From Pecten maximus (taxonomy: Eukaryota), in assembly GCF_902652985.1 (NCBI RefSeq), contig NC_047031.1:12710001-12774000 (forward strand): 64,000 bases of DNA. Reading direction: 5' to 3'. The position numbers and the translations under genes were made by a program. Numbering within the stretch: the first letter of the stretch is position 1; every line of letters begins with the position of its first letter. A model generated the notes under the pieces. The model did not search any database. It saw only the letters and a program-made list of their open reading frames with translations, and was not told where the DNA came from. Of the stretch, positions 1,191 to 52,407 are shown piece by piece.

Positions 1191-1264
1191 GAGGTAATGA
1201 AAAAAAAAACCCTATCCAAAAATATTTTAATGCATCATTTTGTTTGTGTTGATAATTTAATATA

Positions 1265-5720: not shown

Positions 5721-5909
5721 CAAACAATTAGTTATTTGGTGGCGAAAAGTATATAAAGGGATAGACTAGTTATAAACTTGCTTATGGTTAACCTATCACC
5801 GCGGAACTCTTTTTTGGAATATTAGTTATACGTGTGTGAAACATGAAGAAGGCCATAAACTATCATCATCATTGAGGGACGATCAACTCAACAGACTAAA
5901 AAATCAGGT

Positions 5910-6278
5910 ATGTCTCCACCGATTATGAATGCTTTATCGGATAAGCGATCAAAGAAAAAAAATAATACTCTTAGCGAAGAGAGAAAAAAATTGAAACAAA
6001 AGCAAGTAAAGAAACGTAAGCAAGATACTAACATGTTCGAATACATCGAAATCAAAAAAACGTTGGGAACATACGAGGAACAGTGGAATGCGGAAAAGAA
6101 TAAATTAGACGATCTTAAATTTCAACACGAAACTAAGATGTTGCAGACGAATATCCAAGAGAGTAAAAAGAAAGTGGTTAACCTCGGAAGACTCATAAAA
6201 AGCTTAAAGACTCTCGCTAATCGTAAGGATCCAAATAAAGACGAAGGTTTGACTGTACATCAGGTAGCAGAAGAATAA
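5910..6278 (+). CDS. Basic coiled-coil hypothetical viral protein
   Basis: Intact 122-aa Lys-rich helical ORF; TATA (gtatataaag, ~5749) upstream and AATAAA at ~6326. Confidence 0.6.
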   Translation: MSPPIMNALSDKRSKKKNNTLSEERKKLKQKQVKKRKQDTNMFEYIEIKKTLGTYEEQWNAEKNKLDDLKFQHETKMLQTNIQESKKKVVNLGRLIKSLKTLANRKDPNKDEGLTVHQVAEE

Positions 6279-6359
6279 CGATTGTAAATATTTGTTTGTT
6301 TTATAATTGACAATTTTTAGATTGAAATAAATCTTTTTTGCATATATTCTTGAACAAAA

Positions 6360-7508
6360 ATGTTTTCTCTTGTTGTTGCCACGATTTTATCATTGGCTTC
6401 TGCCGAAACGGTACTTAGAGCTCAAGATGTGAGTAATTTCGATTCTATCAATATAGACGGTCAGAATGTATACGTTGGCGAATATTACATCAACGTCAAT
6501 GCCTTGACTTACGATTTTACGATAGTCAATGCGTCGAGTGTCGAGTATACGATAGGTACGAAGAGTGGTGTCGAAAGCGTACTGTTGGGTGAAGGCGCGA
6601 CATTTACCGTTCCTTCGAACGAATTGATTGACACGTTGTACGTAAAAACCGAAAACATGGACGATAATACGGTCGATTTGTGGTACATTCAAGCCATACG
6701 ATTTGTCTTGACTGTCGATCAATGCGAATCTGATATTCTAAAGTTTCAATTGACTTCTACACTGAAACAGTCGTATCCCATTATGGGTCGCGTCGAATTA
6801 TTGAATACCAATGATATAAATATGTGTTCTAGCACATCTTTGGTCGGTCCCATTTCTTTTAACAAACCGGCTTGCGGTATAGAATACGAAAAACCCGAAT
6901 TGGTGTTGTTTAGCACAAACGACGTATTTTTGACATTTCAAACTAGTCAGATGTTTAACGTGACTTGTATACAAGATTTCACTATGACTAGTGTAGATCA
7001 CGACGTTTCAGAAGTGACTGTCGAAGTCGACGAGATTCAAAACATTTACGACAGTGCGTATCTCGTAGATTTGAAAATTGTCGATCCTGAAACCGATTCG
7101 CTCGTGTCCGATGTATACGTAGGCGAAAGTGTAAAAATGGTTGTGAGTTTGGGATCGTTGTTTAGAAGAGATTTCGATATTAGAATAGACGAATGTAAAT
7201 TGAGCGATGTAACCATATACGAACACGGTACAGGTCCAACAACCGGATTGTTTACCGATTTTACAGAGACAACCGACGACGTGTTTGAATCAACATTCGA
7301 TGTATTTAGAGTGAATACGAATGCGAAAGCTTCTCAATTGGTTTACGAATGTACTGTAACCACTTGCTTGGGAGAGTGTCCTCCCATGGGCGGCGGTGGT
7401 GAATTGAGAAAGAAACGTAGTGTCGTGTCTTCTTTACTACCTTCCATCGAAGTGGGTCGAGTGAAATCATACAGAACTCTTGCGTTTTTGGAAAATGTCG
7501 AATACTAA
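6360..7508 (+). CDS. Secreted zona pellucida (ZP) module protein
   Basis: Signal peptide; four-Cys ZP-N pattern (CESD...C...ACGI...FNVTC); ZP-C (VYVGESVKMVV, IRIDEC, FDVFR, YECTVTTCLGECP) followed by furin site RKKR; no introns. Confidence 0.8.
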   Translation: MFSLVVATILSLASAETVLRAQDVSNFDSINIDGQNVYVGEYYINVNALTYDFTIVNASSVEYTIGTKSGVESVLLGEGATFTVPSNELIDTLYVKTENMDDNTVDLWYIQAIRFVLTVDQCESDILKFQLTSTLKQSYPIMGRVELLNTNDINMCSSTSLVGPISFNKPACGIEYEKPELVLFSTNDVFLTFQTSQMFNVTCIQDFTMTSVDHDVSEVTVEVDEIQNIYDSAYLVDLKIVDPETDSLVSDVYVGESVKMVVSLGSLFRRDFDIRIDECKLSDVTIYEHGTGPTTGLFTDFTETTDDVFESTFDVFRVNTNAKASQLVYECTVTTCLGECPPMGGGGELRKKRSVVSSLLPSIEVGRVKSYRTLAFLENVEY

Positions 7509-8031
7509 ATTGATAACCGCTGCGAAAAATTTAGAAAGCTCTATATCTATGATGTTTGCTCATTCGGATAGAAAAACCGTCGATAACATTGTAAAAAATG
7601 AACCGAACAATCTCGTCAATAGACAATTGAAACTCGATAGTATAATGTACACTCACGAGATAACCAATAGATTTGTGGAACAATTACACGAAAATGCCAA
7701 GTGTATGAAAAAGTTGGTGATGGACACGAAACGTTTATCTAGGATAAATCTGATAAACGACAAACAATCTGATGATATTGTAAACCGCGTCGAAAAAATC
7801 ACCGCAAATATTGATAATTCTCAACTATTGATGCAAGAAATAATTACTAGCGTTGATTATTTGAAGGTTCACGTCGACAGATCCATTGTGGATGATGACG
7901 AAGATGACGAAGATAGCGGAGATCTTGTTGTGAGAAAGAAAAAACCACCTCCACCGACAACTACGATTTTACCAGACGTACCCACGACATCTCCGTCATG
8001 TTCCGACACGTCTATGACTCATTATTCTTAG
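7495..8031 (+). CDS. Helical protein, possibly a divergent Snf7/ESCRT-III (CHMP4/6/7-like) homologue
   Basis: NRFVEQLHENAKCMKKL..IVNRVEKITANIDNSQLLMQEIITSVD..DDDEDDED..LPDVPT parallels Snf7 helices 3-5, the acidic tract and a MIM2-like LPxVP motif. Confidence 0.5.
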   Translation: MSNTKLITAAKNLESSISMMFAHSDRKTVDNIVKNEPNNLVNRQLKLDSIMYTHEITNRFVEQLHENAKCMKKLVMDTKRLSRINLINDKQSDDIVNRVEKITANIDNSQLLMQEIITSVDYLKVHVDRSIVDDDEDDEDSGDLVVRKKKPPPPTTTILPDVPTTSPSCSDTSMTHYS

Positions 8032-9836
8032 TGTGTACCATTACGGTCGTTGCTGCATTTTATAACGCAGACGACGGAGAATGGTTTAGACCGTGTTACC
8101 ACACCGGTAACGAGGCTGAACATGGATTGACTATTGTTACGCCGTACGTATCTGATATATACGATACCGGTAACATGACAGACCAACAATTTTTAGCTAC
8201 GAGTGGATTACCTGTCTGTCTGATAATGCTCCCCAGTAACGAAACGACGACCTTGGCAAAGTATAATTTTTACAGACTTTATCGCAACATGCCTACATTG
8301 TCTAGTGAAGAATACAGGAAACAGATGAGTGCTGTAGTTCGTCTGATGAATTATGATCTCGTGGAAGAAGGAGTGGCGTTTGGTTACAAGAAATGGTTCG
8401 GTAGACAAGATAATCGTGTAAAGGGTGGAGTTGTTCCACCGGAAGTGACAACGACCCTATATTATACGGACAAATACGAATTGTTTTTTTATTACGACGG
8501 TCTACCTAACGAGAAGGAAAGGAGAAAGATCGACCAAAAAGGTTGCATAGATGGTGGTGTGAGATACGGCGATTACAAGTGTCTGTTTTTAACAAAATTT
8601 TACGGTCATCCTTGGAACGACTGTGCTGGAAAAAACGGTGCCGAATTGTTCGACGTAGACGATACTGTGGTGTCTAGTTTGGAAGACTATTTTAGAATAA
8701 ACAGAAATGAGACTAAGGATCTATTTGTGGTGGGACAAGTGCGCGGCGATGGTGGTCACATAGGAGGCTACAATAGAATATTTCGTAAGGGTGTTAAAAA
8801 CAGAAATTATTACAACGGATATACCGTCGGTGATCCATTGACCATGTCGTTTCACGAATCTAGTCCGGTGCTTCACGACTACGATTTAAGTATACCTCGT
8901 TACGTGGTTTGTACAGAGACTGCATATAACGAGCGTGCCATGGTTAAATGCTCACAAGATAGGAAATACAGTTTCGAGCACGATTGGTGTAGACAATTCA
9001 TGTTTCCTGATTCGGAATACGAAAAGATGCTCGAATCTATACGAAACGCCGATAGAATTAAAAACTCGAACTTTACACATCTCGTATACGTTGTGAATGA
9101 AGAACCGTCTACAACTACAACAATTCCTACAACGACCACAACGACGACCACAACAATTCCAACGACTACAAAAATTCCAACAACGACGACAATAATTCCA
9201 ACAACAACAACCACAACAATTCCCACAACGACAACGACGACAACAATTCCTACAACGACGACAACGACGACCACAACAATTCCAACGACAACAATAATTC
9301 CTACAACGAATACCTCCACAATAATTCCTACAACGAATACCTCCACAATAATTCCTACAACGAATACCTCCACAATAATTCCTACAACAACGACCTCCAC
9401 AATAATTCCTACATTTACAACAATTCCTACAACGACCACCACGACTACGACAATTCCTACAACAACGACCACCACGACTACACCTACAACAACGACCACC
9501 ACGACGACTACTACGTTAATGAAATCCACGACGACGTCGATTATTGCAAATTCTTTTACAGACTATTTTCTGCATTGGGGTAATAGAGCATTAACGACAT
9601 CCACACCTACGACAACAGAAAATTTGACCGAAAGTGGTGAATTTATGTCTATGGCAGATACGCGATCGGATGATTATATTAGACGATTCGTGTTAATTAC
9701 GGCTGGAATAACGGCTGGCTGTTTAGTGTTTTTCATCGCTGTGACATTTGTCGGCATATGGAGTTGTAAAAAATGGAATACGAATTATTGCGATCAAGAC
9801 AAGACTGTAAAATATTCAGGCGTTTCGAGAATTTGA
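7998..9836 (+). CDS. Type I membrane glycoprotein: C-type-lectin-like domain + Thr-rich mucin stalk + TM
   Basis: Signal peptide; CIDGGVRYGDYKCLF...WNDCAGKNGAELF...YVVC CTLD-like pattern; (IPTTTT)n stalk at 9110-9515; TM FVLITAGITAGCLVFFIAVTFVGIW. Confidence 0.8.
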   Translation: MFRHVYDSLFLVCTITVVAAFYNADDGEWFRPCYHTGNEAEHGLTIVTPYVSDIYDTGNMTDQQFLATSGLPVCLIMLPSNETTTLAKYNFYRLYRNMPTLSSEEYRKQMSAVVRLMNYDLVEEGVAFGYKKWFGRQDNRVKGGVVPPEVTTTLYYTDKYELFFYYDGLPNEKERRKIDQKGCIDGGVRYGDYKCLFLTKFYGHPWNDCAGKNGAELFDVDDTVVSSLEDYFRINRNETKDLFVVGQVRGDGGHIGGYNRIFRKGVKNRNYYNGYTVGDPLTMSFHESSPVLHDYDLSIPRYVVCTETAYNERAMVKCSQDRKYSFEHDWCRQFMFPDSEYEKMLESIRNADRIKNSNFTHLVYVVNEEPSTTTTIPTTTTTTTTTIPTTTKIPTTTTIIPTTTTTTIPTTTTTTTIPTTTTTTTTTIPTTTIIPTTNTSTIIPTTNTSTIIPTTNTSTIIPTTTTSTIIPTFTTIPTTTTTTTTIPTTTTTTTTPTTTTTTTTTTLMKSTTTSIIANSFTDYFLHWGNRALTTSTPTTTENLTESGEFMSMADTRSDDYIRRFVLITAGITAGCLVFFIAVTFVGIWSCKKWNTNYCDQDKTVKYSGVSRI

Positions 9837-10381
9837 TGTTGTTGAACGATTTATGTCGTGCCGTGCCTAAAGAAGTGGTGGCGAGTGTTTGTGGTGGATT
9901 GTACGAACATATCAAAGATGTTACGACGAGGCGGCTACCGTCGACATTTTTTCAATTTTTAAAACATTGTGCTTTATTGATGTTGAAAAATACACTAGAA
10001 GAAAATTTTGATGATGTGACAACTGTTAATGATGTGATTAATTTGAACAATCTCGAAATAGATCGTTATTGGAACAATGTCGATTCGTTTAAGAATGCAG
10101 ACGAGGCAAGATGCATCATAAACGATTTGTTAATCAAACAATGTAGTATTTTATCGAGAAAATTGTACGACAATATTGGTGATAATCATCCTCGGTGTAG
10201 TGCGTGTATCATTGATGCAATCACTATGGGTACCGGTAGACAAGATGATATTTGTGATAATATGATGAAACGTAAGAGTACTTCTTTTACCGATACGTCT
10301 GTATACGATAACACTTGTTATCATGTCTTACTTAAATCTTGTGGTAAATACGATAAATTAATCAAGAAAAATATGCAATGA
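9836..10381 (+). CDS. Cys-rich hypothetical viral protein
   Basis: Intact ORF; likely start ATG overlaps the previous stop (TGATG, 9834-9838); alternative start at 9773. Confidence 0.65.
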   Translation: MLLNDLCRAVPKEVVASVCGGLYEHIKDVTTRRLPSTFFQFLKHCALLMLKNTLEENFDDVTTVNDVINLNNLEIDRYWNNVDSFKNADEARCIINDLLIKQCSILSRKLYDNIGDNHPRCSACIIDAITMGTGRQDDICDNMMKRKSTSFTDTSVYDNTCYHVLLKSCGKYDKLIKKNMQ

Positions 10382-10601
10382 CTCTTGCCCTCCTCTTTTT
10401 TCCTCCTCTGGTTAGACAATTTTTGGTTGTCTTTTTATATAAAAAAAATATATATATCGTTGCAAGCCGTTTTTTATGTCTTGAGCAAAGTTTTGTTCGT
10501 TCTTTTTGCTGCCAATCGTGGCTGTAATTAGTACTGGGTCTTGATGATTCTTACGGCTGATAGCCAAGGCGTTTTCTGTCTCACACTTATGTTGTACATT
10601 C

Positions 10602-10955
10602 TCAACTCAGTGATTTAAGTATCAATCTCTCCACTGTTTCTGTGGGGCGTCTTGGGATGTATTGTGTTTCATTCCATTTTCCTATGTTGTTTGAGCTGCG
10701 CTCTTTTTGCAATAAATAAAAAAAACGTATATAAATTACACATATCTCATGGTTTTTATTCGTCTTCCTTCTACATTTACATCGTTTGTACGACCAAAAT
10801 CCACACATGGAACCGAGACAACTACAACAAAATATCAAAGATACGAATGTCAATAAGACTATGATGATGATCGGATAATATTCCAAGACGAGACCGTGTG
10901 CGACATCGTTTATGGTTTTCGATAAGAGATCAAAATCAATGTCGATGTTTATCAT
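10602..10955 (-). CDS. Small single-pass membrane protein with juxtamembrane Cys cluster
   Basis: TM IIIIVLLTFVSLIF followed by CCSCLGSMCGFWSYKRCKCRRK; divergent from PolB across a TATA-containing spacer; 3' end uncertain. Confidence 0.55.
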   Translation of the reverse strand: MINIDIDFDLLSKTINDVAHGLVLEYYPIIIIVLLTFVSLIFCCSCLGSMCGFWSYKRCKCRRKTNKNHEICVIYIRFFYLLQKERSSNNIGKWNETQYIPRRPTETVERLILKSLS

Positions 10956-11089
10956 CGTGAAACAATAAGTTGTTCCGTTTTTTCAAACAATGTATTGTTT
11001 TAAGACAAAAAAGGTCTAAACACTGTATTGTTTTTAGAAAAGGTATATATTAAACCGGTCTCTTCTATAGTGTTAGTCGACACGCCGTT

Positions 11090-13300
11090 ATGGATTGGCT
11101 ACAGTCTACGTTAGGAGTTATTCGAACTAGGAAATTAGAAAGAATAAAAAATGAATGTTCTAACGAAAAGATCGTAAAAGACACGATACGTTATTGTAAC
11201 GAAAACGGTTTGCCGAACGTACGATTGGTCGATGACGACGTTTACGATGCTTTGTTTGTCGATTCTTACGACAATTGTCGACGATACGATTGCACGGTTT
11301 TTGAAGTGTCGAAATTTAAAGAACCTGATTTCCAGGGTAAATACTTGATATCGTGTGTGTTTGATATAGAAACTGTCAACCGTTTTCAAAATAGCGAAAT
11401 AAACGACAAAATTGTTTACATCGTAATGGATACTTGCATAGCAAATAAATTACCGCCCGTCGATACGGTCTGTCTGTGTGTCACGAATCCGCTAGTAAAA
11501 ACGTACAAACGAGTGGAGAATAGGCGTTATAAATTGAACGAGTTTTCGAAACGATATGCTCACATGATCACCGATCAATATTTCGACGAAAAAACTGAAA
11601 GATATTACAATGTAGTTTATTGTCACGAAAGCGAAAAGAAATTAGTCTTATCGTTTTTAGAGATGTTGAATCGTATAAGACCACACAATCTAGTGACGTT
11701 TAACGGCGAAACATTCGACATTCCTTACTTGATAAGAGCTTGTTATACTCACGACAAAGATATGGCCAACGAATTATCGTTGATTAAACCGGGCATTTGC
11801 AAACATAGCGGGTCTCGATCCATACAGATGAATAAAAAACGTTTACCGAATCGAGGATTCATAAACAAATCCGTTTTAGATCTACAACACGATTGTTTTC
11901 AAGCATTCATACATACAGATCTGTCTAAATATAATAAGGGATCTCTAGACGAAGTGTGTACGAAACAGTTGGGGGCGAAAAAAGTGAATCTATCGTATAC
12001 AGAAATACCACACCTTGTCGAAAGTAGACACGAAAAATTGTTGATTTACAACATAAGAGACACGGAGTTGACAACTAGACTTTTCATGAAGGATTATTTC
12101 ATGACGATAGGATATTACACCACGTTAGAAAAAATCAATTCCGTCTTGTGGGATGTTTCTAGTAGCATGAAAAGATCGGTTCCGGCGTATCAAGCTAATT
12201 ATTCTACGAACGAACGACACGATTTCGTTCAGCCTAGCGTGTTGAAACCGCGCAAGAAACAAGTATGGGTGGTGTACAGAGAAATGATATCCTATTTTGT
12301 GAAACACAGGCAGCAACAGAACCTAGACGAAATGAAATACGCAGACGCTAAACAAGCGTTAGTCGAGTATCACAACGGTAACGTCTCGATGAAAGATCAA
12401 CAGAAATGGTATCGATTGAAAAAAAACGTGACTTCGGCAGATGCCATCGGTCTTTTGGAACGACAAATGAGAGACGTACATAAATACACTACGTTTGATT
12501 TATTGAATTACTTGTCGTACTTGTCGAACGTTTGCACACAATTTACGCCTTTTCTGATGTTGTTCAATAATAAATTTCTACGCACCTATTCTTTCGACAA
12601 ACCAGACCGTATCGCGAAAGAACGCGAAAAGTTTATGGAATTTGCGTATTATCTAACGACGGTGAGAAGATTCATATCTCCTTTCGATACAGCGAAGATA
12701 TGTTGGGCTAGTTATGCCGAATACTACAACACTCACACCAACGTTCGCATACTGAAACAGTTTTTCGACGACCATTTCACGAATCGCAAGACCGGCACGA
12801 TAACTCGAGAATTATACGATGTAGTCGTCGAATGCCAACGAAATAATACACATCGACGTATATTTCAAAATCCAGACAAGATAGTCGACGATATAATGGA
12901 AAGTTTATTGGCCAATTACAAAGAGTTGGTCATAAAAACGACGTACGATGGCGCATTCATCGCCGATCCTGTATCGGGAATCAATTGTGAATTTCCCGTA
13001 GTTGTCGTCGACATAGCATCGCAGTATCCGTCTTGTATAAGAGCTTTGAATCTGAGTGCTCAGACAGAAATCTCGTTGGAATACATAGAAAGAAATCGTC
13101 CGAAGCGCGGAACTGATTTTTACGCCGTCAATTTACGACGATGCGACGATTTGATTGAGTACGAGGTCTATCTAGAGTTAGGCATGAGAGAATACGTTAA
13201 CGATATCGATTATGTTAAAAATATTGTATACAACAAATTCATGTCAAAACGTAACGAAAATACTATAAACGTTAGCGGGTTCCTCGTGTTTGCCGCATGA
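11090..13300 (+). CDS. polB: Family B DNA polymerase, N-terminal part (3'-5' exonuclease + motif A only)
   Basis: ExoI VFDIET, ExoII TFNGETFDIPYL, ExoIII YNIRD, YDGAFIADP..G and VVVVDIASQYPS; no KxxxNSxYG or YGDTDS before the stop. Confidence 0.92.
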   Translation: MDWLQSTLGVIRTRKLERIKNECSNEKIVKDTIRYCNENGLPNVRLVDDDVYDALFVDSYDNCRRYDCTVFEVSKFKEPDFQGKYLISCVFDIETVNRFQNSEINDKIVYIVMDTCIANKLPPVDTVCLCVTNPLVKTYKRVENRRYKLNEFSKRYAHMITDQYFDEKTERYYNVVYCHESEKKLVLSFLEMLNRIRPHNLVTFNGETFDIPYLIRACYTHDKDMANELSLIKPGICKHSGSRSIQMNKKRLPNRGFINKSVLDLQHDCFQAFIHTDLSKYNKGSLDEVCTKQLGAKKVNLSYTEIPHLVESRHEKLLIYNIRDTELTTRLFMKDYFMTIGYYTTLEKINSVLWDVSSSMKRSVPAYQANYSTNERHDFVQPSVLKPRKKQVWVVYREMISYFVKHRQQQNLDEMKYADAKQALVEYHNGNVSMKDQQKWYRLKKNVTSADAIGLLERQMRDVHKYTTFDLLNYLSYLSNVCTQFTPFLMLFNNKFLRTYSFDKPDRIAKEREKFMEFAYYLTTVRRFISPFDTAKICWASYAEYYNTHTNVRILKQFFDDHFTNRKTGTITRELYDVVVECQRNNTHRRIFQNPDKIVDDIMESLLANYKELVIKTTYDGAFIADPVSGINCEFPVVVVDIASQYPSCIRALNLSAQTEISLEYIERNRPKRGTDFYAVNLRRCDDLIEYEVYLELGMREYVNDIDYVKNIVYNKFMSKRNENTINVSGFLVFAA

Positions 13301-13331
13301 ATAAAACAAAACAAACAAAAAAGGATGTTTT

Positions 13332-13901
13332 TTATTTTTTTATTTTCTTTCTATGAAAAATGTGACCGCAACTGACAAGACATTTTTTGTCTTCGCATAT
13401 TGAAGGGTTTGTATAACTGATAGTTATTCTTTTCAAATTGTTAGACTTTATTATCAAATCGATTTTTTTTTTCCCCGTTAACATATATCCCATTCCGGAA
13501 ATTGAAAATGATTCTATTTCTTTATGTACACTAGGGCTTACGATTAAATTATAAAGATTGCCCATCGCACTGTAATTCGTCCACTGTATCAAATATGGTA
13601 ATGTTTCTTCTTCTTTCGATGTTTCAAAAGCCTTTTCCCAATCTTTTCGAACGTTCATCCAATGATTTACACTTGCACAATTTTCTTTTTTCATAACAAT
13701 CCCATACGTTTCGTGTACTGGATTAGACCATCTTGCACAAGTCAAAGCGAGGTTGATTTTTTCTGCGTCTCCTAAAAATTCGTTTATACGATCTGTAACC
13801 AAACGAGGTAGTCTATCGAATATAGAATCTGTTACAGAATCGCTATCGATACCTAATGATTCATTTGTTAAAAGGAAAACTTCCATATCCGGCTGAAACA
13901 T
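13332..13901 (-). CDS. F-box-like protein
   Basis: IFDRLPRLVTDRINEFLGDAEKINLALTCARW fits the F-box consensus; ATG at 13901 with TATA at ~13981. Confidence 0.65.
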   Translation of the reverse strand: MFQPDMEVFLLTNESLGIDSDSVTDSIFDRLPRLVTDRINEFLGDAEKINLALTCARWSNPVHETYGIVMKKENCASVNHWMNVRKDWEKAFETSKEEETLPYLIQWTNYSAMGNLYNLIVSPSVHKEIESFSISGMGYMLTGKKKIDLIIKSNNLKRITISYTNPSICEDKKCLVSCGHIFHRKKIKK

Positions 13902-14016
13902 TTTTTCGATGGGTAGATAACTCTGTAAAGATATACAGGAGATCCACTTCTGATGGCTGTTGTAGGATTGAATGGCGGAATATATATAACAACGGGTGGT
14001 TAATCTAATTTTAAAA

Positions 14017-14210
14017 CAGAACAATAAGTTATTCTGACTCTGAGAGAATAATTAATTATTCTCCATCAGAACAATAAGTTATTCTGACTCTGAGAATAAT
14101 AAGTTATTCTCTTATTTATTGTCGAATAATAAGTTATTCTCCTTTTGGATAATACCTCTCTCCTCCCCCTTTTACCATCAGTCTGCTATAGTACGTGGTA
14201 GAGATAGGAT
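14017..14210. repeat. hr-like palindrome cluster 1 (5 copies)
   Basis: Imperfect palindrome GAGAATAA-TAAG-TTATTCTC repeated, followed by the atcagtctg...gtacgtggt.gaga motif shared with cluster 2. Confidence 0.85.
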
Positions 14211-14233
14211 GTATTGTTTACATACTCTACAGT

Positions 14234-14500
14234 ATGGGAGGTATTGATTTTTATTATGGTGATAATCAGTGTAGTTGCTCAGCGTGTGAACATTACAAGA
14301 TTTACTCATGCGATATTGACACACTAATACGTCTTGAAGGTTGGTCTTACATCAATGGTGAAGAAATAAAAAATGAACATGTCGGCGAACTCGTCAAGAT
14401 ATTGTATAGACTATGGAAAAAAGACAAATCTATCGACAGTGATTATATGAGATTGTTATTTATGTTCAGTGAACACATAGGTACAGAAATATCTTCATAG
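14234..14500 (+). CDS. Small hypothetical viral protein (CxCxxC motif)
   Basis: Intact 88-aa ORF from ATG 14234 with composition like neighbouring island genes. Confidence 0.5.
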   Translation: MGGIDFYYGDNQCSCSACEHYKIYSCDIDTLIRLEGWSYINGEEIKNEHVGELVKILYRLWKKDKSIDSDYMRLLFMFSEHIGTEISS

Positions 14501-14549
14501 ACTATTGTCTAGCTTACGCACAGGATGTGTGGAGCTAACCAGGAATAAC

Positions 14550-15900
14550 TACCGCGGGTTTTTTTAAAAAAAAAACTATTTCGCGGGTTTTTTTTAAACA
14601 TTTCCCGCGTTAGACTTGTCACATGATTTTCATAAATTGCAGACGTGGACATCTGCTAAGTCGGTCACAGCGGTTTTTAAAAAGTGAACTTTATACTCAA
14701 AGTTCAGGTAAACATCTGCCAAGTGGGTCAGCTGGAACTTTGCACTTTAAACAAAGGAATCACGTGTTATTTTTCGACAGATGTCGAGGTCGCACGTGGA
14801 AATAATAATACATTTTGACGTCAGTCGCTTGTAGGTTAAACCTTTTAACACGTGTTGAAAGATTTAAGTGGTTTAAAAATATGATCTTTGTTTGTTAAGG
14901 GGGTCAGTGAGAGGCCGCAAGAGGTTTTTCCCCACAAAACAAAGTGTCAGTGAGAGGCCACAAGGGGTTTTCAGGTGTCAGTGATTGTTTTCCCAGACTT
15001 TTTGGCACCAAGCCACTTGGGAGGTTAAGTGTTTTAAAATGTTCTTTGTTTGCCAAGGAGGTTAAGTGGGTTTACAAACATGTTCTTTGTTTGCAAAGGG
15101 GGTCAGTGAAAGGCCGCAAGAGGTTTTCCCCACAAAAAAAGTGTGAAGGACGTCTCTCGACCAATGAAAGCGTTTGTCTCTTTGACCAATGAAAAAGTAG
15201 GTCTCTTTCGACCAATGAAAGAGTTGTATTTGATCACGTGGTGACGCGGTTGCTAAAGAGAGAACTGTTTTGTTAGTCAATAGTCCACAATATCTCGGAG
15301 AGAGAGGACGTATGTTTGAGCCAGTGGAGAATATAGAAAACTTCAAGCAGAGAGAAACAGGGTTTATATTAACGTAAAAAGGTGAGTGTTTTTTTTTTAT
15401 ATATTTTGGTGTGTGTATAAAGATTTTACATCCAGAATATCCAGTAAAATAGCCGGCAATTCAGTATATAAACACATAGAGTTAGAGAGAAACAGGGTTA
15501 ACGTTGTGGTTTTATAAAAAATTTGGTGTTACAAAGCCGGTAAATGGTTATTAGCCCTACGAGAAATCTTGAACAGGAGAAAAATTGTAAATGATGGTAA
15601 AATAAACGACATAACTTCACCATGGCTGTTTTATTTTTTCAAATATGAAGTTTATAACCCTACATAACTCGGCTCCGGCATCGTGACCGACGTTATTTCG
15701 TGATAACTCAGTTTGAAAATGAGTACAAGTCAACTAACCTATTTTCGGTTTCGGTCTGCGTGACGTCAGTCTCGTTGTTGTGTATATATACACACTGGAG
15801 GTGGTGTATTATATATACACTGGAGGTGGTGTGTTATACCGAACAATTAGTTGAACAATTAAGTTATCAAACAATTAATTATCGAACAATTACCGAACAA
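14550..15900 (+). promoter_or_regulatory. Non-coding enhancer/promoter-like block
   Basis: Three gaccaatgaaa CCAAT boxes at 25-26 bp spacing (15161, 15186, 15212), E2F-like cgcggg/tttcccgcg, CACGTG, TGACGTCA (~15761), duplicated ~40-bp units at 14900 and 15100. Confidence 0.45.
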
Positions 15901-15987
15901 TTGATTGTTTTACCACATTTCAAAAATACAATATATTGTTTTGCAATTCAATTAAAATTTCATTTCTTTTTTTTTCCAGAAACAAAT

Positions 15988-16379
15988 ATGTGGTTTAAGT
16001 ACAGCCCTAAAGGTACAAGGCCTCCTTCCACGTACGACGCTTCAGAATGGCTGGAATTATTGAGGAACAAAGGTTACGTGGACAACACCAACCTGGACGA
16101 CGGTCGCCTGACAACAATGAAATTATTTTCATTAACGAGCAACAAACTTCATCACCGTCCAGATGATACTGCAACAATCGTATCAGAAATTACACAATAC
16201 CTAATTGGTAAAGGAGAGGATACAACAGACATCTTGAAACAAATGGAAGTAATTACAAAATGGAAGAGCATCTATCACAAGACACCCAAGGCTCCCAATG
16301 AACACAGTTATCCACAGCGCTATAGAATCTGGGATTTACGGAAAGTGGGTGTGAATGAAAACATGGCACTGGATTGTTT
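15988..16379 (+). CDS. Hypothetical protein with a possible DED-like segment, running into the assembly gap
   Basis: YDASEWLELLRNKGYVDNTNLD resembles DED helices 4-5; ATG preceded by a polypyrimidine-CAG acceptor. Confidence 0.45.
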
Positions 16380-17088
16380 NNNNNNNNNNNNNNNNNNNNN
16401 NNNNNNNNNNNNNNNNNNNNNNNNNNNNNNNNNNNNNNNNNNNNNNNNNNNNNNNNNNNNNNNNNNNNNNNNNNNNNNNNNNNNNNNNNNNNNNNNNNNN
16501 NNNNNNNNNNNNNNNNNNNNNNNNNNNNNNNNNNNNNNNNNNNNNNNNNNNNNNNNNNNNNNNNNNNNNNNNNNNNNNNNNNNNNNNNNNNNNNNNNNNN
16601 NNNNNNNNNNNNNNNNNNNNNNNNNNNNNNNNNNNNNNNNNNNNNNNNNNNNNNNNNNNNNNNNNNNNNNNNNNNNNNNNNNNNNNNNNNNNNNNNNNNN
16701 NNNNNNNNNNNNNNNNNNNNNNNNNNNNNNNNNNNNNNNNNNNNNNNNNNNNNNNNNNNNNNNNNNNNNNNNNNNNNNNNNNNNNNNNNNNNNNNNNNNN
16801 NNNNNNNNNNNNNNNNNNNNNNNNNNNNNNNNNNNNNNNNNNNNNNNNNNNNNNNNNNNNNNNNNNNNNNNNNNNNNNNATCAGCCACAGCAATTCTTGT
16901 GGGAAAAAACAACAACATTCATCTAATAAGTCTTGATTCTGCTTCAACACTTCTAAATCTTGTACAGAAGACATCCGAGAGAAGATACACCTGAACAACA
17001 CCTGAACAAACAATGATTATGATGTTCCATCGTTGGTATATATACGCACAACACACCACCCACACACACGAACAATACATTGTTCCGC

Positions 17089-17853
17089 CTAAGAACAAGT
17101 TATTGTTTTGTCTGCCGTCATCACCTTTTCTATTGGTCCTCCGGCGTCTTCAATCCATGCATTGATTTCTTCAAAAGATATAGGAGGATAATACATACAC
17201 ACCGATATCAATTTATTGTAGTCGATATCTAATCCGAGCTTGATGATGCTCGATATCACTGTTTCGCACGATGTAGTATTATTGCGCAGCAAATCATGCA
17301 TTGTTACACAATAATGTAATGTGTATTCTTTATAATCCACATCCTGTAGGTCGTATTTATGGATCAACCCTACCGCAATACAGGATTCTGATGCACCTAA
17401 AACTCTACACAATCTTCTCAAGTCTCTATCTTTTTCAATACTATTGGCTATACAAAACAATTGAATTCCCGTCACTTCTTGTTTCAACTTGTTCAATCCC
17501 ATAGCAACCGAACACACGTTGTTCGAAAAACCGAGATTTTCTAGACAGGTTGCCATAATAAATATCACATCATCGGCAGGGTTTGCTCGTATATTCAAAA
17601 CCCATTTATGTATCAACCGATAATTTATCTCGTAGTCGTCATCACCGCTGTTGATGCAATCTCTTACAAAAATACTGATTGTTTGTTTCGTTTGTTCTCC
17701 AATATCATAGTTGTCTCCTGACACTAATTGATGGACATCTTTTGTAGTTAGAGTCAAAGCTAGATGATCAATCAGTGTGTTCCAGTTTACGTCATCTAAT
17801 ATCTGGTCCATTAGCCTAGAAACAGCATCGTATACGTGGTACGGAAAAACCAT
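17089..17853 (-). CDS. Tandem death-domain-like protein
   Basis: VTGIQLFCIANSI..DLRRLCRVLGASESCI...ETVISSIIKLGL matches the death domain pattern; the N-half (NWNTLIDHL...YRLIHKW...MATCLENLG) looks like a second copy. Confidence 0.65.
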   Translation of the reverse strand: MVFPYHVYDAVSRLMDQILDDVNWNTLIDHLALTLTTKDVHQLVSGDNYDIGEQTKQTISIFVRDCINSGDDDYEINYRLIHKWVLNIRANPADDVIFIMATCLENLGFSNNVCSVAMGLNKLKQEVTGIQLFCIANSIEKDRDLRRLCRVLGASESCIAVGLIHKYDLQDVDYKEYTLHYCVTMHDLLRNNTTSCETVISSIIKLGLDIDYNKLISVCMYYPPISFEEINAWIEDAGGPIEKVMTADKTITCS

Positions 17854-18041
17854 CTTCTTGCTTTTCTATTCTGATATTTTTACAACGTTTTATATATATC
17901 TACTGGTTAAACTGAAACAATGTATTGATCTGTTTATGGTCGATAAATTTCCGGTTTTTTGTTTCTTTCAACTGTCATAGTTAGAAAACTATTAGTGAAT
18001 TACAAAAAAAAAATAATTTACAAAACACAAAAAAAAAAACA

Positions 18042-18440
18042 ATGAGAGGGTTAGTTACATTACTGGTAGTAGTAGCAGTGACGTTATTAAAACATGGTGA
18101 CGCATCAAAAGTATTTATGTCGCAACCGGTCAATCCTTGGGTTCAAGAACAACCCCGAACCGTTTTTCACGTGCAAGTACCAGAAGATGTCCCATTTTGT
18201 GGTAACGAATATTCACATCATTTAGCTTGTATGTACTGTGTTGGATCATCGTGTGATGGTCAGGATATTGAAGGAAACGAGATATTAGTACATTTTAAAG
18301 ACGACGACAAAGTTTGTATCAATCGTTTAAAAATTGTAACTGATCCTTTCCCCGATGGTATGTGTGGTCCGTGGATCGATAGTCATACTATGATCGCCGA
18401 TAATTTTCCGAGACGACGTCCTAATCCTCCCAGCAAATAA
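18042..18440 (+). CDS. Secreted six-Cys protein of unknown function
   Basis: Signal peptide, 6 Cys, AATAAA overlapping the stop. Confidence 0.7.
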   Translation: MRGLVTLLVVVAVTLLKHGDASKVFMSQPVNPWVQEQPRTVFHVQVPEDVPFCGNEYSHHLACMYCVGSSCDGQDIEGNEILVHFKDDDKVCINRLKIVTDPFPDGMCGPWIDSHTMIADNFPRRRPNPPSK

Positions 18441-18516
18441 AACAATTTATTGATTTAGACTCACTTATATATATATATATATATGTAATATAGTGCAATG
18501 TGTCATCACAACAACA

Positions 18517-19338
18517 ATGGTTGCGCTTGTACTACTCGTTAGTAATCGAGATTTTAAAAACAAGTCAGAACGTCCACAAAGATTTGGTGCTCTTAGAGAT
18601 GCAAAAACACTCAGAAGATGTTTTTCAAAATATCCAGGTATCAAATTTATGGAAAAATATGATGACGAGAGTCGAGAATTTAACGACGTGGAACACATTC
18701 ACATCAATTTAACAGAGAAAGATCTGTTAGAAACATTAAAACGAGCGGCTATACGTATCGAAGAGTCTGAATTCGAAAGTTTTATATGCGTAATATCCTC
18801 TTATGGATCGGGATCAAAAATGGTAATGTGTCCTGGGGAAGGCAGAGTCTTCGGAAGCCCAGTGACTGGATTGTTTAAAAACGGAAAATTAGTCGGAAGC
18901 CGCTATCTTGGATCCGAAGAAAAGGACAGTATCGTTAGAGTGCAAGATATTATCGACATTTTTAACAAAACAAAAAAAATTCCAAAGTTTTTCTTCATCC
19001 AGAACGATTGTCCATACGAAATAACCCATTCGGGAAAGAACCACGTCACTCCAGTACCAGAATGGGTTGTTAACCAACAACAACCGACGTTATTATGCGA
19101 CAACGTATTGATACATTCGATGCCCCAAGATATAGAGTCGTGTTGGGGATGGTTTCGAAACAGAGGACGAGGTTTGTCTCATTACACACAAGCATTGTGT
19201 AGAGCATTGACCGATTACAACAACACAGATGATTTCATTTCGCTATTGAATAAAATATTCAAGGACGATGATAAAGAAGAACCCACAACGTTATCTACAT
19301 TATTAGGTAACAATAATTCATTGTTTGTCCATGCTTGA
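18517..19338 (+). CDS. Caspase-fold (peptidase C14A) protein with altered catalytic residues (cFLIP-like pseudocaspase)
   Basis: LLVSNRDF..RFGALRDAKTL, NLTEKDL, SFICVISSYG (normally SHG), KIPKFFFIQND (normally QACRG), RNRGRGLSHYTQALC, PTTLSTL. Confidence 0.85.
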   Translation: MVALVLLVSNRDFKNKSERPQRFGALRDAKTLRRCFSKYPGIKFMEKYDDESREFNDVEHIHINLTEKDLLETLKRAAIRIEESEFESFICVISSYGSGSKMVMCPGEGRVFGSPVTGLFKNGKLVGSRYLGSEEKDSIVRVQDIIDIFNKTKKIPKFFFIQNDCPYEITHSGKNHVTPVPEWVVNQQQPTLLCDNVLIHSMPQDIESCWGWFRNRGRGLSHYTQALCRALTDYNNTDDFISLLNKIFKDDDKEEPTTLSTLLGNNNSLFVHA

Positions 19339-19393
19339 CAATAAATTGTTTTATATATATATATAAGTTGTGTGTGTGTGAAAAGAGATAACC

Positions 19394-19705
19394 ATGGTGG
19401 ACTTAGGTCGACCCATAACAGGGCGTGTATCGGATGTTAGGGTGGAATCTACAATGATTATCGAATTGGATGCACCACCCAGTCAATCTCTAGCTCCATA
19501 CCTAGGAATACGGACAGACGCTTATGAAGTAATCCACGCACTATATGATAAAAACATCATCGGTTTTGAACACTACCAAGTTCTCGCTGAATCTTTGAGA
19601 GAGTCGGCCAACGTAATCGACAAAATTAAAATCAACCTAATCGGCGAGAGGACTTCTCTAAAGAAGAAAACCACAAAAAAAGGAAAAGGACTTCAAACAG
19701 AGTGA
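19394..19705 (+). CDS. Small protein with a DED-like segment
   Basis: RTDAYEVIHALYDKNIIGFEHYQVLAESL resembles the DED C-terminal half; own TATA (19351) and AATAAA (19751). Confidence 0.5.
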   Translation: MVDLGRPITGRVSDVRVESTMIIELDAPPSQSLAPYLGIRTDAYEVIHALYDKNIIGFEHYQVLAESLRESANVIDKIKINLIGERTSLKKKTTKKGKGLQTE

Positions 19706-19829
19706 AGCGTCTCAGGAAAAGAATGAACAATACATTGTTGTAAAAAAAACAATAAATTGTTTATACATTATATATATAAAAGTGTTTTTTTTTTTTTTTT
19801 TTGGAAAACTTCCAAAAATGGAAAGTAAC

Positions 19830-20120
19830 ATGAAAAAACTCGAACGTTTGTTGGCCACTATGTCATTTGAAGATGCATACTAGAAAAATACGAAGAAAAT
19901 ATGGAGCTTGGAAATGACAATGATCATCGATGCAGCAATCGACGTTGTGGCGAATTCTCTATCTCCATACCTAGGAGGAGGATTACAGTAGACATTTTTG
20001 AAGTAGTTAGTGCGTTATAAAAACCTCATCTGTTTTGGAAATTACATCGAAGAATCTTTGATGATGGAGGATGTTGAGCGACATAATCGTCAATTACACA
20101 AGAAAAATGAAAGATTTTAA
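19830..20120 (+). pseudogene. Degenerate tandem paralogue of ORF 19394-19705
   Basis: 19955-20060 (tctctatctccatacctagga...gaagta...aaaacctcatc...gaatctttg) aligns with 19487-19598; stops and frameshifts present. Confidence 0.7.
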
Positions 20121-20164
20121 TGAACTCAACATAATGGACATATTCCGACCACAAAAAGAAGTTC

Positions 20165-20440
20165 AAAACGTCTAAAGAACATTAAAAAAGTCTGATTAAA
20201 GGACCCGATGAGGGGTCCTATGGCCGTTCGTACGAAGAACATCCGTGATTCTGTCACCAGAAACGGAGCATCACCCGGGGGGGTCCACATGAATTATTGG
20301 AGCCGGAAAGATGTGTTCCTGTGATATCGCGGGGACATGTCACTTTAAAAAACGCCCTCTTTCCGTTGTGGACTTGTGACACCGCCCTAATCCAGTACAC
20401 TCAATTCATGTGTAACAAACACCTCAGACGTTTTTTTTTT
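20165..20440 (+). ncRNA. Candidate structured non-coding RNA
   Basis: GC-rich island with six or more nested stems, G-U pairs on the + strand, pairing ends and a terminal T10 run. Confidence 0.45.
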
Positions 20441-20576
20441 AAAAATAAAAAATTTATATAAATTATGGGTTTTTTTTGTTATGTTTTTAAAAAAAACAAC
20501 TATTTTTGTGTGTTGGAGTTATCTGCCCTAATTACCTCCCTTTGAAAAAAAGACAAGTAGCTTCACGAAAAAAAAG

Positions 20577-21084
20577 TTTCTCAGTAACAAGTTGTCAATC
20601 AGTTAAAAATTTGAGCATAGGTTCGTTTCGTAAATCACATAATGTATATATCCTAGGAAAAATGTTAAAATGGTTGTACAATGTATGATGTTTTTATACA
20701 ACGTAATAAGTGTTGTATCAAGTGTTTTACGGTCACGAAAAATTTGAGCATAGGTTCGTTTCGTAAATCACATAATGTATATATCCTAGGAAAAATGTTA
20801 AAAAATGGTTATACAAATGTTTTTATACAACGTAATAAGTGTTGTAGCAAGTGTTTTTATACAACGTAATAAGTGTTGTAGCAAGTATATACATCACGAA
20901 AAATTTGAGCATAGGTCCGTTTCGTAAATCACATAATGTATATATCCTAGGAAAAATGGTTATACAATGTATGATGTTTTATACAACGTAATAAATGTTA
21001 TAACATTGTAGGAAGTGTTTTACAATGTAATAAGTGTTTATACATTGTAAGATAAATCAGTTTTTTTTCTCAGTAACAAGTTGT
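20577..21084. repeat. Three ~133-160 bp tandem units bracketed by a 19-bp direct repeat
   Basis: aaaaatttgagcatagg at 20605, 20738 and 20899; tttctcagtaacaagttgt at 20577 and 21066. Confidence 0.9.
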
Positions 21085-21151
21085 TGTCTTTCCCCTGTAA
21101 CATTATATATTACCTCCTCACAAAAACCTTTGCTTGAATAACCCTACAGCA

Positions 21152-21805
21152 TGTCCTCTCTCCACCACGTACGATAACAGACTGATCCTGTCTATTGACT
21201 TTAGACTAATAAATAACGAATAACTTATTATTCTCCATCAGAATAACTTATTATTCTCATAGACAGAATAACTTATTATTCTCATAGACAGAACAATTTG
21301 TTATTCTCCATAAGTCAGAATAACTTATTATTCTCCTTTTGACAATTGAGAATAACTTATTATTCTCCTTCGAGAAATTCGACAAATAAGAGAGAATAAC
21401 TTATTATTCGACAATCTTATGACGATGTACCCACAATCTTATATAATCGCGTCCCACGACACAACCCAACACGACGTTCTCTCTCTCCCACCACGTACAG
21501 ACTGATCCTGTCTAATGACTCTCTAGACTAATAAATAACGTATTATTCTGACAATTGAGAACAATTTATTATTCTCCTTTTGACGATTGAGAATAACTTA
21601 TTATTCTCCTTCGAGAATAACTTATTATTCTCCTTTTTGAGAATAACTTATTATTCTCACAATTGAGAACAATTTATTATTCTCCTTCGACAGAACAACT
21701 TGTTATTCTGACAATTGAGAATAACTTATTATTCTTCGACAGAACAATTTATTATTCTTCGAACAACACACATTGGATCAGTCTGTACGTGGTGGAGAGA
21801 GGACA
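21152..21805. repeat. hr-like palindrome cluster 2 (~16 copies) inside ~30-bp inverted flanks
   Basis: GAGAATAA-CTTA-TTATTCTC variants; 21152-21188 is inverted to 21775-21805. Confidence 0.9.
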
Positions 21806-22019
21806 CGATGGCCAGGTAAAGGGGGGGGGGGGGGGGGGTAAAAAAAGACACCCCTCCCCCCCTTATTTTTACAAAATTTTTATAAGGAAAAACAATTTTC
21901 ATATGCATCATTACAGGTGTTTTTTTTCCACACATATACTTTTTTGTTTTTTTTTTAAGACTCTCTCTCTTCATAACCAAAAGTAACATTGGGTGTCGCA
22001 TTTTTTTTTCTTTTCTGAT

Positions 22020-22893
22020 AACGTCGAGCACGTCGTATGCAATGGGCAACGGCACATATGCCCAGACGTTTTCCTATGAGACGTTGGAGGTCTATGCTCT
22101 TCACCGATGAATCTCGATTCACGTTATTTCGAGCAGATGGCCGTCAACGTGTGTACCGGCGTCGAGGCGAACGTTTTGCTGACGCCTGTGTTTTGGAACA
22201 CGACCGATTTGGGGGTGGATCAGTTATGGTTTGGGCGGGAATCTCCCATGGTTTGAAGACGCCTTTGGTGATAGTCAATGGGAATTTAACGGCCGTACGC
22301 TATCGGGATGAGATCCTTAGGCCCCATGTTGTGCCGTTTGTTAGGCAGCATCATCTAACCTTTCAGCAAGATAACGCGAGACCACACGTTGCAAGAGTCT
22401 GTAGAGACTTTCTTGCGACACAGAACATTGTTCCTATAGATTGGCCTCCATATAGCCCCGACCTGTCCCCAATCGAGCATTTGTGGGATGAATTAGACAG
22501 AAGAATTCGAAATCGCCGTAACCCCCCAAATACCCTCCCTCAGTTAGCAAATGCACTCGTCCAAGAATGGAATAACATTCCAATACGGAAAGTCAATGCC
22601 CTGATGAACTCAATGCAACAAAGAATTAGAGATGTGATAACTGTTCGAGGAGGACACGCACGATATTAGGGCACGGTTTCAAAACTGCTGCCATTTCAAC
22701 TTGGATTCACGTAGGGTACTACCAATCATGACCTTCTAGCAAAGTGACCTGTTCTTAAAAATCTCTAAACATTTAAAGGATGTTACATCAATATTCAATA
22801 TTAACTATTACATATGAAATTTAAACATAATGCTCACAAGTATTATTTTATTAAACCTACAATTTGAAGTTGCGTTTCTTTTTCTTTTCAGTA
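22020..22893 (+). mobile_element. 5'-truncated Tc1 copy, near-identical to 1931-2804
   Basis: Direct match with a few substitutions; right TIR present, left TIR and DNA-binding region absent. Confidence 0.95.
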
Positions 22894-22899
22894 TATATA

Positions 22900-48317: not shown

Positions 48318-48388
48318 CTTCCCTGATGATTCTAAAACAACAATAATATATATTTGTCATTCAATAACTATTTACAAATATTCAAGGC

Positions 48389-52350: not shown

Positions 52351-52407
52351 ATTTACGTTTCTTCTTTTCTTTACTCCTGGCATCGGCCTTATCATGACAG
52401 GAGTTTC

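What the first reader, a model, noticed from the sequence alone, without database searches (positions are those of the whole stretch)
18517..19338. Prodomain-less viral pseudocaspase with a cFLIP-like QN-x site
All caspase p20/p10 blocks are present, but the catalytic His is replaced (SSYG for SHG) and QACRG reads QNDCP, echoing cFLIP QNYV. The S1 arginines (RFG, WFRN) are retained, suggesting a substrate trap or heterodimer inhibitor. A Cys sits one residue off register, so residual activity cannot be excluded.
Basis: partly seen in the sequence, partly recalled or inferred. Interest (0 to 1): 0.75.

Follow-up and report, generated by a model that had tools for sequence, protein, structure and literature searches.

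The report
Virus-captured dead caspase from bivalves
A fragment of a large DNA virus in an animal genome carries a catalytically dead copy of a cell-death protease. It was probably taken from a bivalve gene family that had already lost a catalytic residue, and it probably acted as a decoy; it is not related to the vertebrate inhibitor cFLIP.

Summary
The 273-aa ORF is real and has a caspase fold (Pfam C14 E 2.5e-10; model Z 19.7). Tyr96 sits at the catalytic His and Asp164 at the catalytic Cys. Cys165 occupies the next column, with no indel. Contigs of four samples cover both sites. The gene is intronless and lacks a prodomain. It lies in a ~16-kb compact gene block with a truncated delta/herpes-like PolB, among animal transposons. 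The cFLIP reading fails. The closest relatives are scallop and oyster 'caspase-3/7-like' proteins (31% identity, E 1e-29) that already carry SYG but keep Cys. His loss was therefore probably inherited from the host, and Cys-to-Asp came later, paralleling Cys-to-Glu in six oyster paralogues. cFLIP has Arg/Tyr and DEDs. The p10 S1 arginine is one residue out of register, which weakens the substrate-trap idea. Best reading: a viral pseudocaspase acting as a non-catalytic decoy or dimer partner (identity ~0.85; mechanism ~0.45, untested). Catalytically dead viral caspases are known from ascoviruses; capture of an already His-less bivalve caspase was not found in eight literature searches. New variant of a known kind.

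The parts
18517..19338 (+). Pseudocaspase ORF, 273 aa, intronless, no prodomain, single-chain p20+p10
18580..18582 (+). Arg22, p20 S1 arginine, in register
18802..18804 (+). Tyr96 at the catalytic His position (SYG), shared with all 5 bivalve species found
18841..18915 (+). About 25-residue insertion after CPGE, absent from relatives, low model confidence
19000..19014 (+). QNDCP: Gln162 kept, Asp164 at the catalytic Cys position, Cys165 at the +1 column (hosts QGCVP, QGCTP, HGCTP, QLCPA)
19150..19161 (+). WFRN: Phe213 at the p10 S1 Arg column, Arg one residue later as in scallop W(G/A)R; oyster has WYE
18466..18483 (+). (TA)9 TATA-like tract 39-51 nt upstream of the ATG
19340..19345 (+). AATAAA signal directly after the stop
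5900..22019 (.). Virus-like compact gene block (left end uncertain; 500-N gap at 16380-16879; right end abuts a 5'-truncated Tc1 copy at 22020)
11090..13300 (+). Family B DNA polymerase, N-terminal part only (ends after the first polymerase motif); 45-46% identical to an unnamed 1703-aa intein-bearing PolB (P0007)
14010..14205 (.). Left array of an imperfect 18-nt palindromic repeat, with a flanking motif inverted relative to the right array
21147..21810 (.). Right array of the same repeat
6360..7508 (+). Secreted-type protein with a weak VERL_C (ZP-like) hit, E 9e-4, below Pfam cut-off
7998..9836 (+). Mucin-like, Thr-rich predicted membrane glycoprotein; no family hit
17089..17853 (-). Helical 254-aa neighbour; death-domain likeness is a weak lead only

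Best explanation
A large nuclear DNA virus with a delta/herpes-like polymerase captured, as an intronless copy, a member of the bivalve 'caspase-3/7-like' clade. That clade had already replaced the catalytic His with Tyr. The viral copy lacks the long unstructured N-terminus of the scallop and oyster proteins, has Asp in place of the catalytic Cys, and kept the caspase core. A fragment of this virus now lies in an animal assembly. SHOWN: fold, loss of both catalytic residues, affinity to the SYG clade, compact virus-like context. INFERRED: direction host-to-virus; the host is a bivalve; the protein is proteolytically dead and stays single-chain (no Asp between residues 166 and 194). INFERRED, UNTESTED: it works by binding, as a zymogen-like decoy that pairs with a host caspase (an active effector or the host 3/7-like pseudocaspase) or occupies that protein's partners, and so damps caspase activation in infected cells. 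Odds: identity and origin ~0.85; binding-decoy mechanism ~0.45.
For: phmmer over 1.84 billion representatives gave 1 hit, P0001 (E 2e-21), whose cluster holds Argopecten irradians 'caspase-7-like' XP_069110604.1. BLASTP identity is 75/239, E 1e-29. The profile search gave 8 hits: 5 bivalve proteins (4 scallop, 1 oyster), all SYG, and 3 SHG caspases. BLASTP E-values: scallops 1e-24 to 2e-29, oyster 2.5e-7, the six SHG rows 1e-8 to 1e-3. 21 columns are shared with all 4 scallop proteins and none of 3 SHG caspases, against 6 shared with at least 2 SHG and no SYG host. With the active-site columns dropped, the viral protein lies on the SYG side of a 99/99 branch; 4 of 4 placements inside the SHG group are rejected (AU p 0.001-0.033). 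The oyster relative matches Cg3/7-like of Vogeler 2021 (SYG, QLCPA, GWYED), and paralogues A-F have SYG with Glu at the Cys (6 of 6). Conservation is graded: 21 of 32 universally conserved columns kept, 45 of 93 scallop-only, 37 of 109 variable, consistent with selection on the fold. Context: coding fraction 0.91 and 0.84 in the two gene blocks; PolB closest to Pol delta and HSV UL30 among solved structures; a 14-nt intergenic palindrome occurs 7 times, all at 10986-19761 on both sides of the N gap, against 0.21 expected (pattern chosen after seeing it). Contig depth over the gene is of the same order as the low-copy flank and hundreds-fold below Tc1.
Against: No binding partner or activity was tested. 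The C-terminal dimer strand is degenerate and modelled at pLDDT <50, so dimerisation may be lost. No second viral copy was found, so conservation of Asp164 across viruses is unknown. The viral branch is long (1.6-1.9 changes per column), the tree has only 9-13 rows, and no caspase-8 or cFLIP sequence could be put in it. A position as sister to all SYG hosts is not rejected (p 0.34), nor sister to the oyster protein (p 0.13). No capsid, terminase or other hallmark gene was found, so the virus family is unassigned. The PolB is separated from the gene by an assembly gap, and no listed contig spans the block-to-host junction. TATA and AATAAA signals were found for only 5 and 6 of 14 ORFs, against backgrounds of 16% and 23%. 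The one studied dead viral caspase, HvAV-Casp, does not induce apoptosis and is linked to replication or assembly instead (review passage).
Confidence: 0.55

Rival explanations
1. Same origin, but the role is not anti-apoptotic: a scaffold for replication, assembly or cell remodelling, as reported for ascovirus HvAV-Casp.
For: HvAV-Casp lacks catalytic residues, does not induce apoptosis, and its silencing lowers capsid protein (PMC12655742 passage; PMC10583209 passage). This protein has a degenerate dimer strand and a private ~25-residue insertion.
Against: The ascovirus protein is a separate capture: ascovirus and entomopoxvirus models match at only 10-16% identity. Nothing here ties this gene to assembly.
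Confidence: 0.2
2. Substrate trap: the S1 pocket still binds P1-Asp substrates or inhibitors without cutting them.
For: R22, Q162 and G97 are in register, and an Arg lies at 214.
Against: F213 takes the p10 Arg column; the oyster orthologue has no Arg there (WYED); the linker has no Asp to allow maturation of the pocket. An Asp at the nucleophile position could repel a P1 Asp or pair with R22 (inference).
Confidence: 0.1
3. Not a viral gene: a host retrocopy or decaying caspase paralogue that landed in a repeat-rich region or in the viral fragment after integration.
For: Bivalves have many degenerate caspases (PMC7836458, PMC10967218 passages). No viral relative was found, and the PolB lies across an N gap.
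Against: The ORF is intact despite 1.6-1.9 changes per column, with graded conservation. It sits in tight gene spacing with TATA and AATAAA, and the block's intergenic palindrome and repeat arrays bracket it on both sides of the gap.
Confidence: 0.08
4. Residual protease using Cys165 or a non-His base.
For: A Cys lies next to the nucleophile position. Host relatives keep Cys with Tyr (5 of 5 species), which might point to a non-canonical chemistry in the clade.
Against: Cys165 aligns with Val/Thr/Pro of the hosts and Arg/Gln of active caspases without a gap; there is no His in the SHG loop.
Confidence: 0.05
5. A cFLIP(L)-like regulator of caspase-8, by descent or by mimicry at the DISC.
For: Neighbours at 17089 and 19394 look faintly death-fold-like.
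Against: Different replacements (Tyr/Asp against Arg/Tyr) and no DEDs. The 60 best PDB profile hits are all caspase-3/7. For entry 3H11, titled caspase-8:cFLIP, one chain is listed, at Z 18.1, below the top rows. Vogeler 2021 reports no FLIP in bivalves. The neighbours' death folds were not supported.
Confidence: 0.03

Closest known systems
Bivalve 'caspase-3/7-like' clade (Vogeler et al. 2021, PMC7836458; Cg3/7-like XP_034310204; scallop XP_069110604.1, XP_033762013.1, XP_021375233.1, XP_060082499.1; Saccostrea XP_061179990.1)
   Same: SYG for SHG, CP(G) after it, G-W for S-W, and with scallops SLRDA-like, Q..xP(Y/F)E and WxR...RGLS..QALC motifs
   Different: No N-terminal extension, Asp at the Cys (orthologues keep Cys; oyster paralogues A-F have Glu), a 25-residue insertion, a shortened C-terminus, and an intronless gene in a virus-like block
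Ascovirus caspase-like proteins HvAV-Casp (ORF165) and TnAV-Casp2
   Same: Virus-encoded caspase fold lacking catalytic residues (PMC12655742 passage)
   Different: Insect NCLDV hosts and independent capture; no sequence-level hit; described as derived from caspase-7-like or caspase-2-like genes, with no mention of a His-less donor in the passages read
SfAV-1a executioner caspase; Amsacta moorei entomopoxvirus AMV063; Agrotis segetum NPV-B Asb018
   Same: Viral caspase-fold models matched by Foldseek (E 6e-5, 2e-5, 2e-3)
   Different: 10-16% identity; the SfAV enzyme is active (QSCLG); the active sites of AMV063 and Asb018 were not inspected
Human cFLIP(L)
   Same: Caspase domain with both catalytic residues replaced; a precedent for regulation by heterodimerisation
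   Different: Arg/Tyr replacements, tandem DEDs, caspase-8 paralogue; can also activate its partner
Integrated malacoherpes-like genomes such as BelcheriHV-1 (PMC12373286)
   Same: Compact viral gene block between repeat-rich host DNA
   Different: Only ~16 kb here, polymerase truncated, no herpes hallmark gene found; family unassigned

Membership tests
Caspase fold (Peptidase C14) | Profile match above the curated cut-off | tested here: met
   40.9 bits against 21.4
Caspase fold (Peptidase C14) | Caspase alpha/beta fold | tested here: met
   Model pLDDT 65.6; Foldseek E 1e-9; VIA Z 19.7, rmsd 3.1, 188 aligned
Active caspase | Catalytic His in SHG | tested here: not met
   Tyr96
Active caspase | Catalytic Cys in QxCxG | tested here: not met
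   Asp164; Cys165 is in the next column
Active caspase | S1 triad Arg-Gln-Arg | tested here: inconclusive
   R22 and Q162 in register; third Arg shifted by one, loop pLDDT <50
Active caspase | Asp-specific proteolysis | not testable with these tools
   needs an assay
cFLIP | Tandem N-terminal DEDs | tested here: not met
   Caspase domain begins at the N-terminus; DEDs
cFLIP | Arg and Tyr at the dyad positions | tested here: not met
   Tyr and Asp here; R315/Y360 in FLIP(L)
cFLIP | Descent from caspase-8/10 | tested here: inconclusive
   No caspase-8 or FLIP row could be put in the tree; nearest relatives are effector-type SYG proteins
cFLIP | Heterodimer with an active caspase | not tested
Bivalve caspase-3/7-like clade | SYG replacing SHG | tested here: met
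Bivalve caspase-3/7-like clade | Groups with the clade when active-site columns are removed | tested here: met
   99/99 branch; nesting in SHG rejected 4 of 4; position within or beside the clade unresolved; 9 rows, long branch
Gene of a large DNA virus | Compact intronless block with a viral-type PolB and shared cis-motifs | tested here: met
   linkage to PolB crosses an N gap
Herpesvirales / Malacoherpesviridae | HK97 capsid, terminase, portal or malacoherpes orthologues | tested here: inconclusive
   None among the ORFs scanned; only a fragment is present and the libraries cover these viruses poorly

The most novel reading that the evidence does not exclude
An undescribed herpes-like lineage of bivalve viruses pirated a host pseudoenzyme rather than an enzyme. 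The bivalve caspase-3/7-like clade would then be an invertebrate regulator of effector caspases, a FLIP analogue at the effector level, and the virus keeps a prodomain-free, constitutive mimic of it. The Cys-to-acidic change seen independently in the virus (Asp) and in six oyster paralogues (Glu) would mark a recurrent self-plugged S1 state.
Probability: 0.25. Interest if true: 0.72.

Novelty: new variant of a known kind. Interest (0 to 1): 0.45.

Why it matters
Viral caspase-fold proteins were described from insect and protist NCLDVs; none from a mollusc-associated herpes-like virus came up in the searches run. Viruses tend to keep host genes that matter in conflict, so this capture suggests that the uncharacterised His-less bivalve caspase-3/7-like clade regulates cell death or antiviral defence. 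It supplies a small single-domain protein with which to test that. It also flags an undescribed large DNA virus lineage (PolB 45-46% identical to one unnamed sequence). The limits are a single example, no function shown, and an existing ascovirus precedent.

Tried and rejected
No whole genome is held for the window. A word-based homologue search with the single protein found 0 of 489 candidates. Locus scans found no viral or metagenomic relative of the caspase: (0 of 1, 98 and 130 candidate stretches). PolB scans: one search gave one weak 55-residue hit (L001, 29%, not followed up); and the phage tblastn gave none. These scans use short exact patterns, so blanks are weak. Earlier scan findings: none in three look-ups. 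Expression: no RNA holder listed; X5 and X7 are only guessed RNA. Depth in X1 over the block (12-18) is about half that of one flank piece (34.7), but that flank is a retroelement, so hemizygosity is not claimed. Death-fold neighbours: 17089-17853 gave Atlas scores of 0.81-0.84 to Death clusters with recognition 1823, below 2300, a model at pLDDT 39.6, best Z 5.7 to unrelated helical proteins and no PDB hit. 19394-19705 looks DED-like by eye only, with no Pfam hit and one unrelated PDB hit. Both are rejected as evidence for a split vFLIP. Active-site geometry could not be measured because model coordinates are not exposed. The AU test 'virus with SHG' is the same split as 'sister to all SYG hosts' and does not test nesting; one search does. 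The first tree had 13 rows; the second dropped 4 near-duplicate rows (P0001, P0019, P0020, P0021). Literature: searches found no paper on this gene or on a mollusc-virus pseudocaspase; (QNYVV) found nothing relevant. Subscription journals are not searched. PMC11463336 (passages) had nothing relevant.

Full report
OBSERVATION. Window 18517-19338 (+) is an intact 273-codon ORF; 0 of 300 shuffles of the local 2.8 kb give one this long. It matches Pfam Peptidase_C14 (E 2.5e-10). All ten best named Atlas hits share a family or clan with the top hit, a caspase. An AlphaFold model from a 9-row alignment (pLDDT 65.6, pTM 0.71) matches caspases 3, 7, 6 and 9 (Foldseek E 1e-9; VIA Z 19.7, rmsd 3.1, 188 aligned), starting at residue 1, so there is no prodomain. 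Tyr96 lies on the catalytic His and Asp164 on the catalytic Cys; Cys165 takes the next column without a gap. Contigs from 4 of 4 runs laid cover both sites; three show no other letter, and X4 shows one other letter and four gaps at unlisted places in 1.7 kb. X1 may be the source, and X5 and X7 come from one study. Arg22 and Gln162 are in register, but the p10 S1 column holds Phe213, with Arg one residue later (human caspase-3 reads SWRN). The C-terminal dimer strand is degenerate. Both regions are modelled at pLDDT <50. The intersubunit linker has no Asp between 166 and 194.

ORIGIN. Among 1.84 billion representatives there was one hit, in a cluster with Argopecten irradians 'caspase-7-like' (75 of 239 identical, E 1e-29). 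A two-row profile found 8 proteins: four scallop and one oyster protein, all with SYG and an in-register Cys, and three conventional SHG caspases. The viral protein shares 21 columns with all four scallop proteins and none of the three SHG proteins, against 6 the other way. With active-site columns removed it lies on the SYG side of a 99/99 branch, and four placements within the SHG group are rejected (AU p 0.001-0.033). Its place within or beside the SYG clade is unresolved (p 0.34 and 0.13), the branch is long and the tree small. The oyster hit corresponds to Cg3/7-like of Vogeler et al. 2021 (PMC7836458; passages; supplements 1, 4, 5 searched; the supplement store gave no answer, so the file list may be incomplete). 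In their alignment Cg3/7-like reads SYG and QLCPA, and paralogues A-F read SYG with Glu at the Cys (6 of 6). Their text says Cg3/7-like keeps the histidine, but the supplement shows Tyr; the Cys is what it keeps. Degenerate dyads are common in bivalves (PMC10967218 passages). I infer that His loss was inherited from the donor and that the Cys-to-Asp change came later.

cFLIP. FLIP(L) has Arg315 and Tyr360 at the dyad and tandem DEDs (PMC7586951 passages). All eight caspase-8 rows shown from the supplement keep SHG. The 60 best PDB hits of the family profile are caspase-3 or -7. Vogeler et al. report no FLIP in bivalves. The QN resemblance is a single residue. No caspase-8 or FLIP sequence could be entered in my tree, so descent was tested only indirectly.

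CONTEXT. The window is animal-like DNA with Tc1 and gypsy elements and two 500-N gaps. From about 5.9 to 22.0 kb lies a compact block (coding fraction 0.91 and 0.84 in its two gene-rich parts). It holds a family B polymerase, 45-46% identical to an unnamed intein-bearing PolB and closest to Pol delta and HSV UL30 among solved structures. The polymerase ends after its first polymerase motif, and its remainder is not in the window. The block also has a ZP-like protein, a mucin-like membrane protein and several orphans. The pseudocaspase has a TATA-like tract upstream and AATAAA right after the stop, though such signals were found for only 5 and 6 of 14 ORFs. An N gap separates it from the polymerase, but a 14-nt palindrome occurs 7 times, only within the block and on both sides of the gap (0.21 expected), and related repeat arrays lie at 14.0-14.2 and 21.1-21.8 kb. 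Depth is of the order of low-copy flank DNA; no listed contig spans the junction. Viral origin is therefore likely, integration probable, and the family unassigned. Integrated herpes-like genomes between repeats are known from lancelet (PMC12373286 passages). That the host is a bivalve is an inference from the relatives.

MECHANISM. Both catalytic residues are gone, so proteolysis is unlikely (established caspase chemistry). The core is kept in a graded way: 21 of 32 universal columns, 45 of 93 scallop-only, 37 of 109 variable. This points to selection on the fold during viral evolution. The most likely use of a dead, uncleaved caspase domain is binding: pairing with a host caspase or with the partners of the host pseudocaspase, and so damping cell death. 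This step is inferred by analogy (about 0.45). Against it stand the degenerate dimer strand and the ascovirus precedent, where the dead HvAV-Casp does not induce apoptosis and is tied to replication (PMC12655742 and PMC10583209 passages; the primary papers by Asgari and by Bideshi were not read). A substrate trap is less likely given the shifted Arg and the uncleavable linker. Residual activity through Cys165 is unlikely.

NOVELTY. Viral caspase-fold proteins are known from ascoviruses, entomopoxviruses, a baculovirus and giant viruses (10-16% identity for the three named insect-virus hits). A bivalve iridovirus carries a host-like CARD-RHIM protein, not a caspase domain, in the passages read (PMC12452177). 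Eight searches found no report of this gene or of viral capture of a His-less bivalve caspase. Verdict: new variant of a known kind, interest 0.45.

Noticed in passing
window 11090-13300: The PolB ORF is intact for 736 codons but stops after the first polymerase motif with a neat stop plus AATAAA; its last ~25 residues do not match P0007. It is truncated, split or spliced; the rest is not in the window.
   Followed up: partly
P0007 (Logan contig, 17,968 bp): An unnamed 1703-aa PolB with an intein-like insertion (Pfam E 0.003) is the closest relative; possibly a second member of an undescribed large DNA virus lineage.
   Followed up: partly
window 10986-19761: An intergenic 14-nt palindrome occurs 7 times, only within the virus-like block; candidate viral cis-element.
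   Followed up: partly
window 14010-14205 and 21147-21810: Arrays of an imperfect 18-nt palindrome in inverted arrangement bracket a 7-kb segment; possibly origin-like or terminal repeats. A G-run/T-run at 21820-21870 faintly recalls herpes packaging signals (from memory, untested).
   Followed up: partly
window 19819-20120: A broken reading frame that by eye resembles the 19394-19705 ORF over ~20 residues; tblastn did not confirm it.
   Followed up: partly
window 18841-18915: The virus-specific insertion was aligned by phmmer to helix 3 of effector caspases, while MAFFT and HHalign place helix 3 later; it may be an internal duplication.
   Followed up: no
window 6360-7508: A ZP-like (VERL_C, E 9e-4) secreted protein in the viral block; perhaps a second capture from a mollusc host.
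   Followed up: no
window 1260-2810 and 22020-22898: A complete Tc1/mariner copy with an intact 339-aa transposase lies left of the block, and a nearly identical 5'-truncated copy abuts its right end.
   Followed up: partly
window 46780-53100: A gypsy element with a baculovirus-F-like env remnant (Pfam Baculo_F E 0.008, below cut-off).
   Followed up: no
PMC7836458 text and supplement 5: The text says Cg3/7-like keeps the catalytic histidine; the supplementary alignment shows SYG with the Cys kept.
   Followed up: yes
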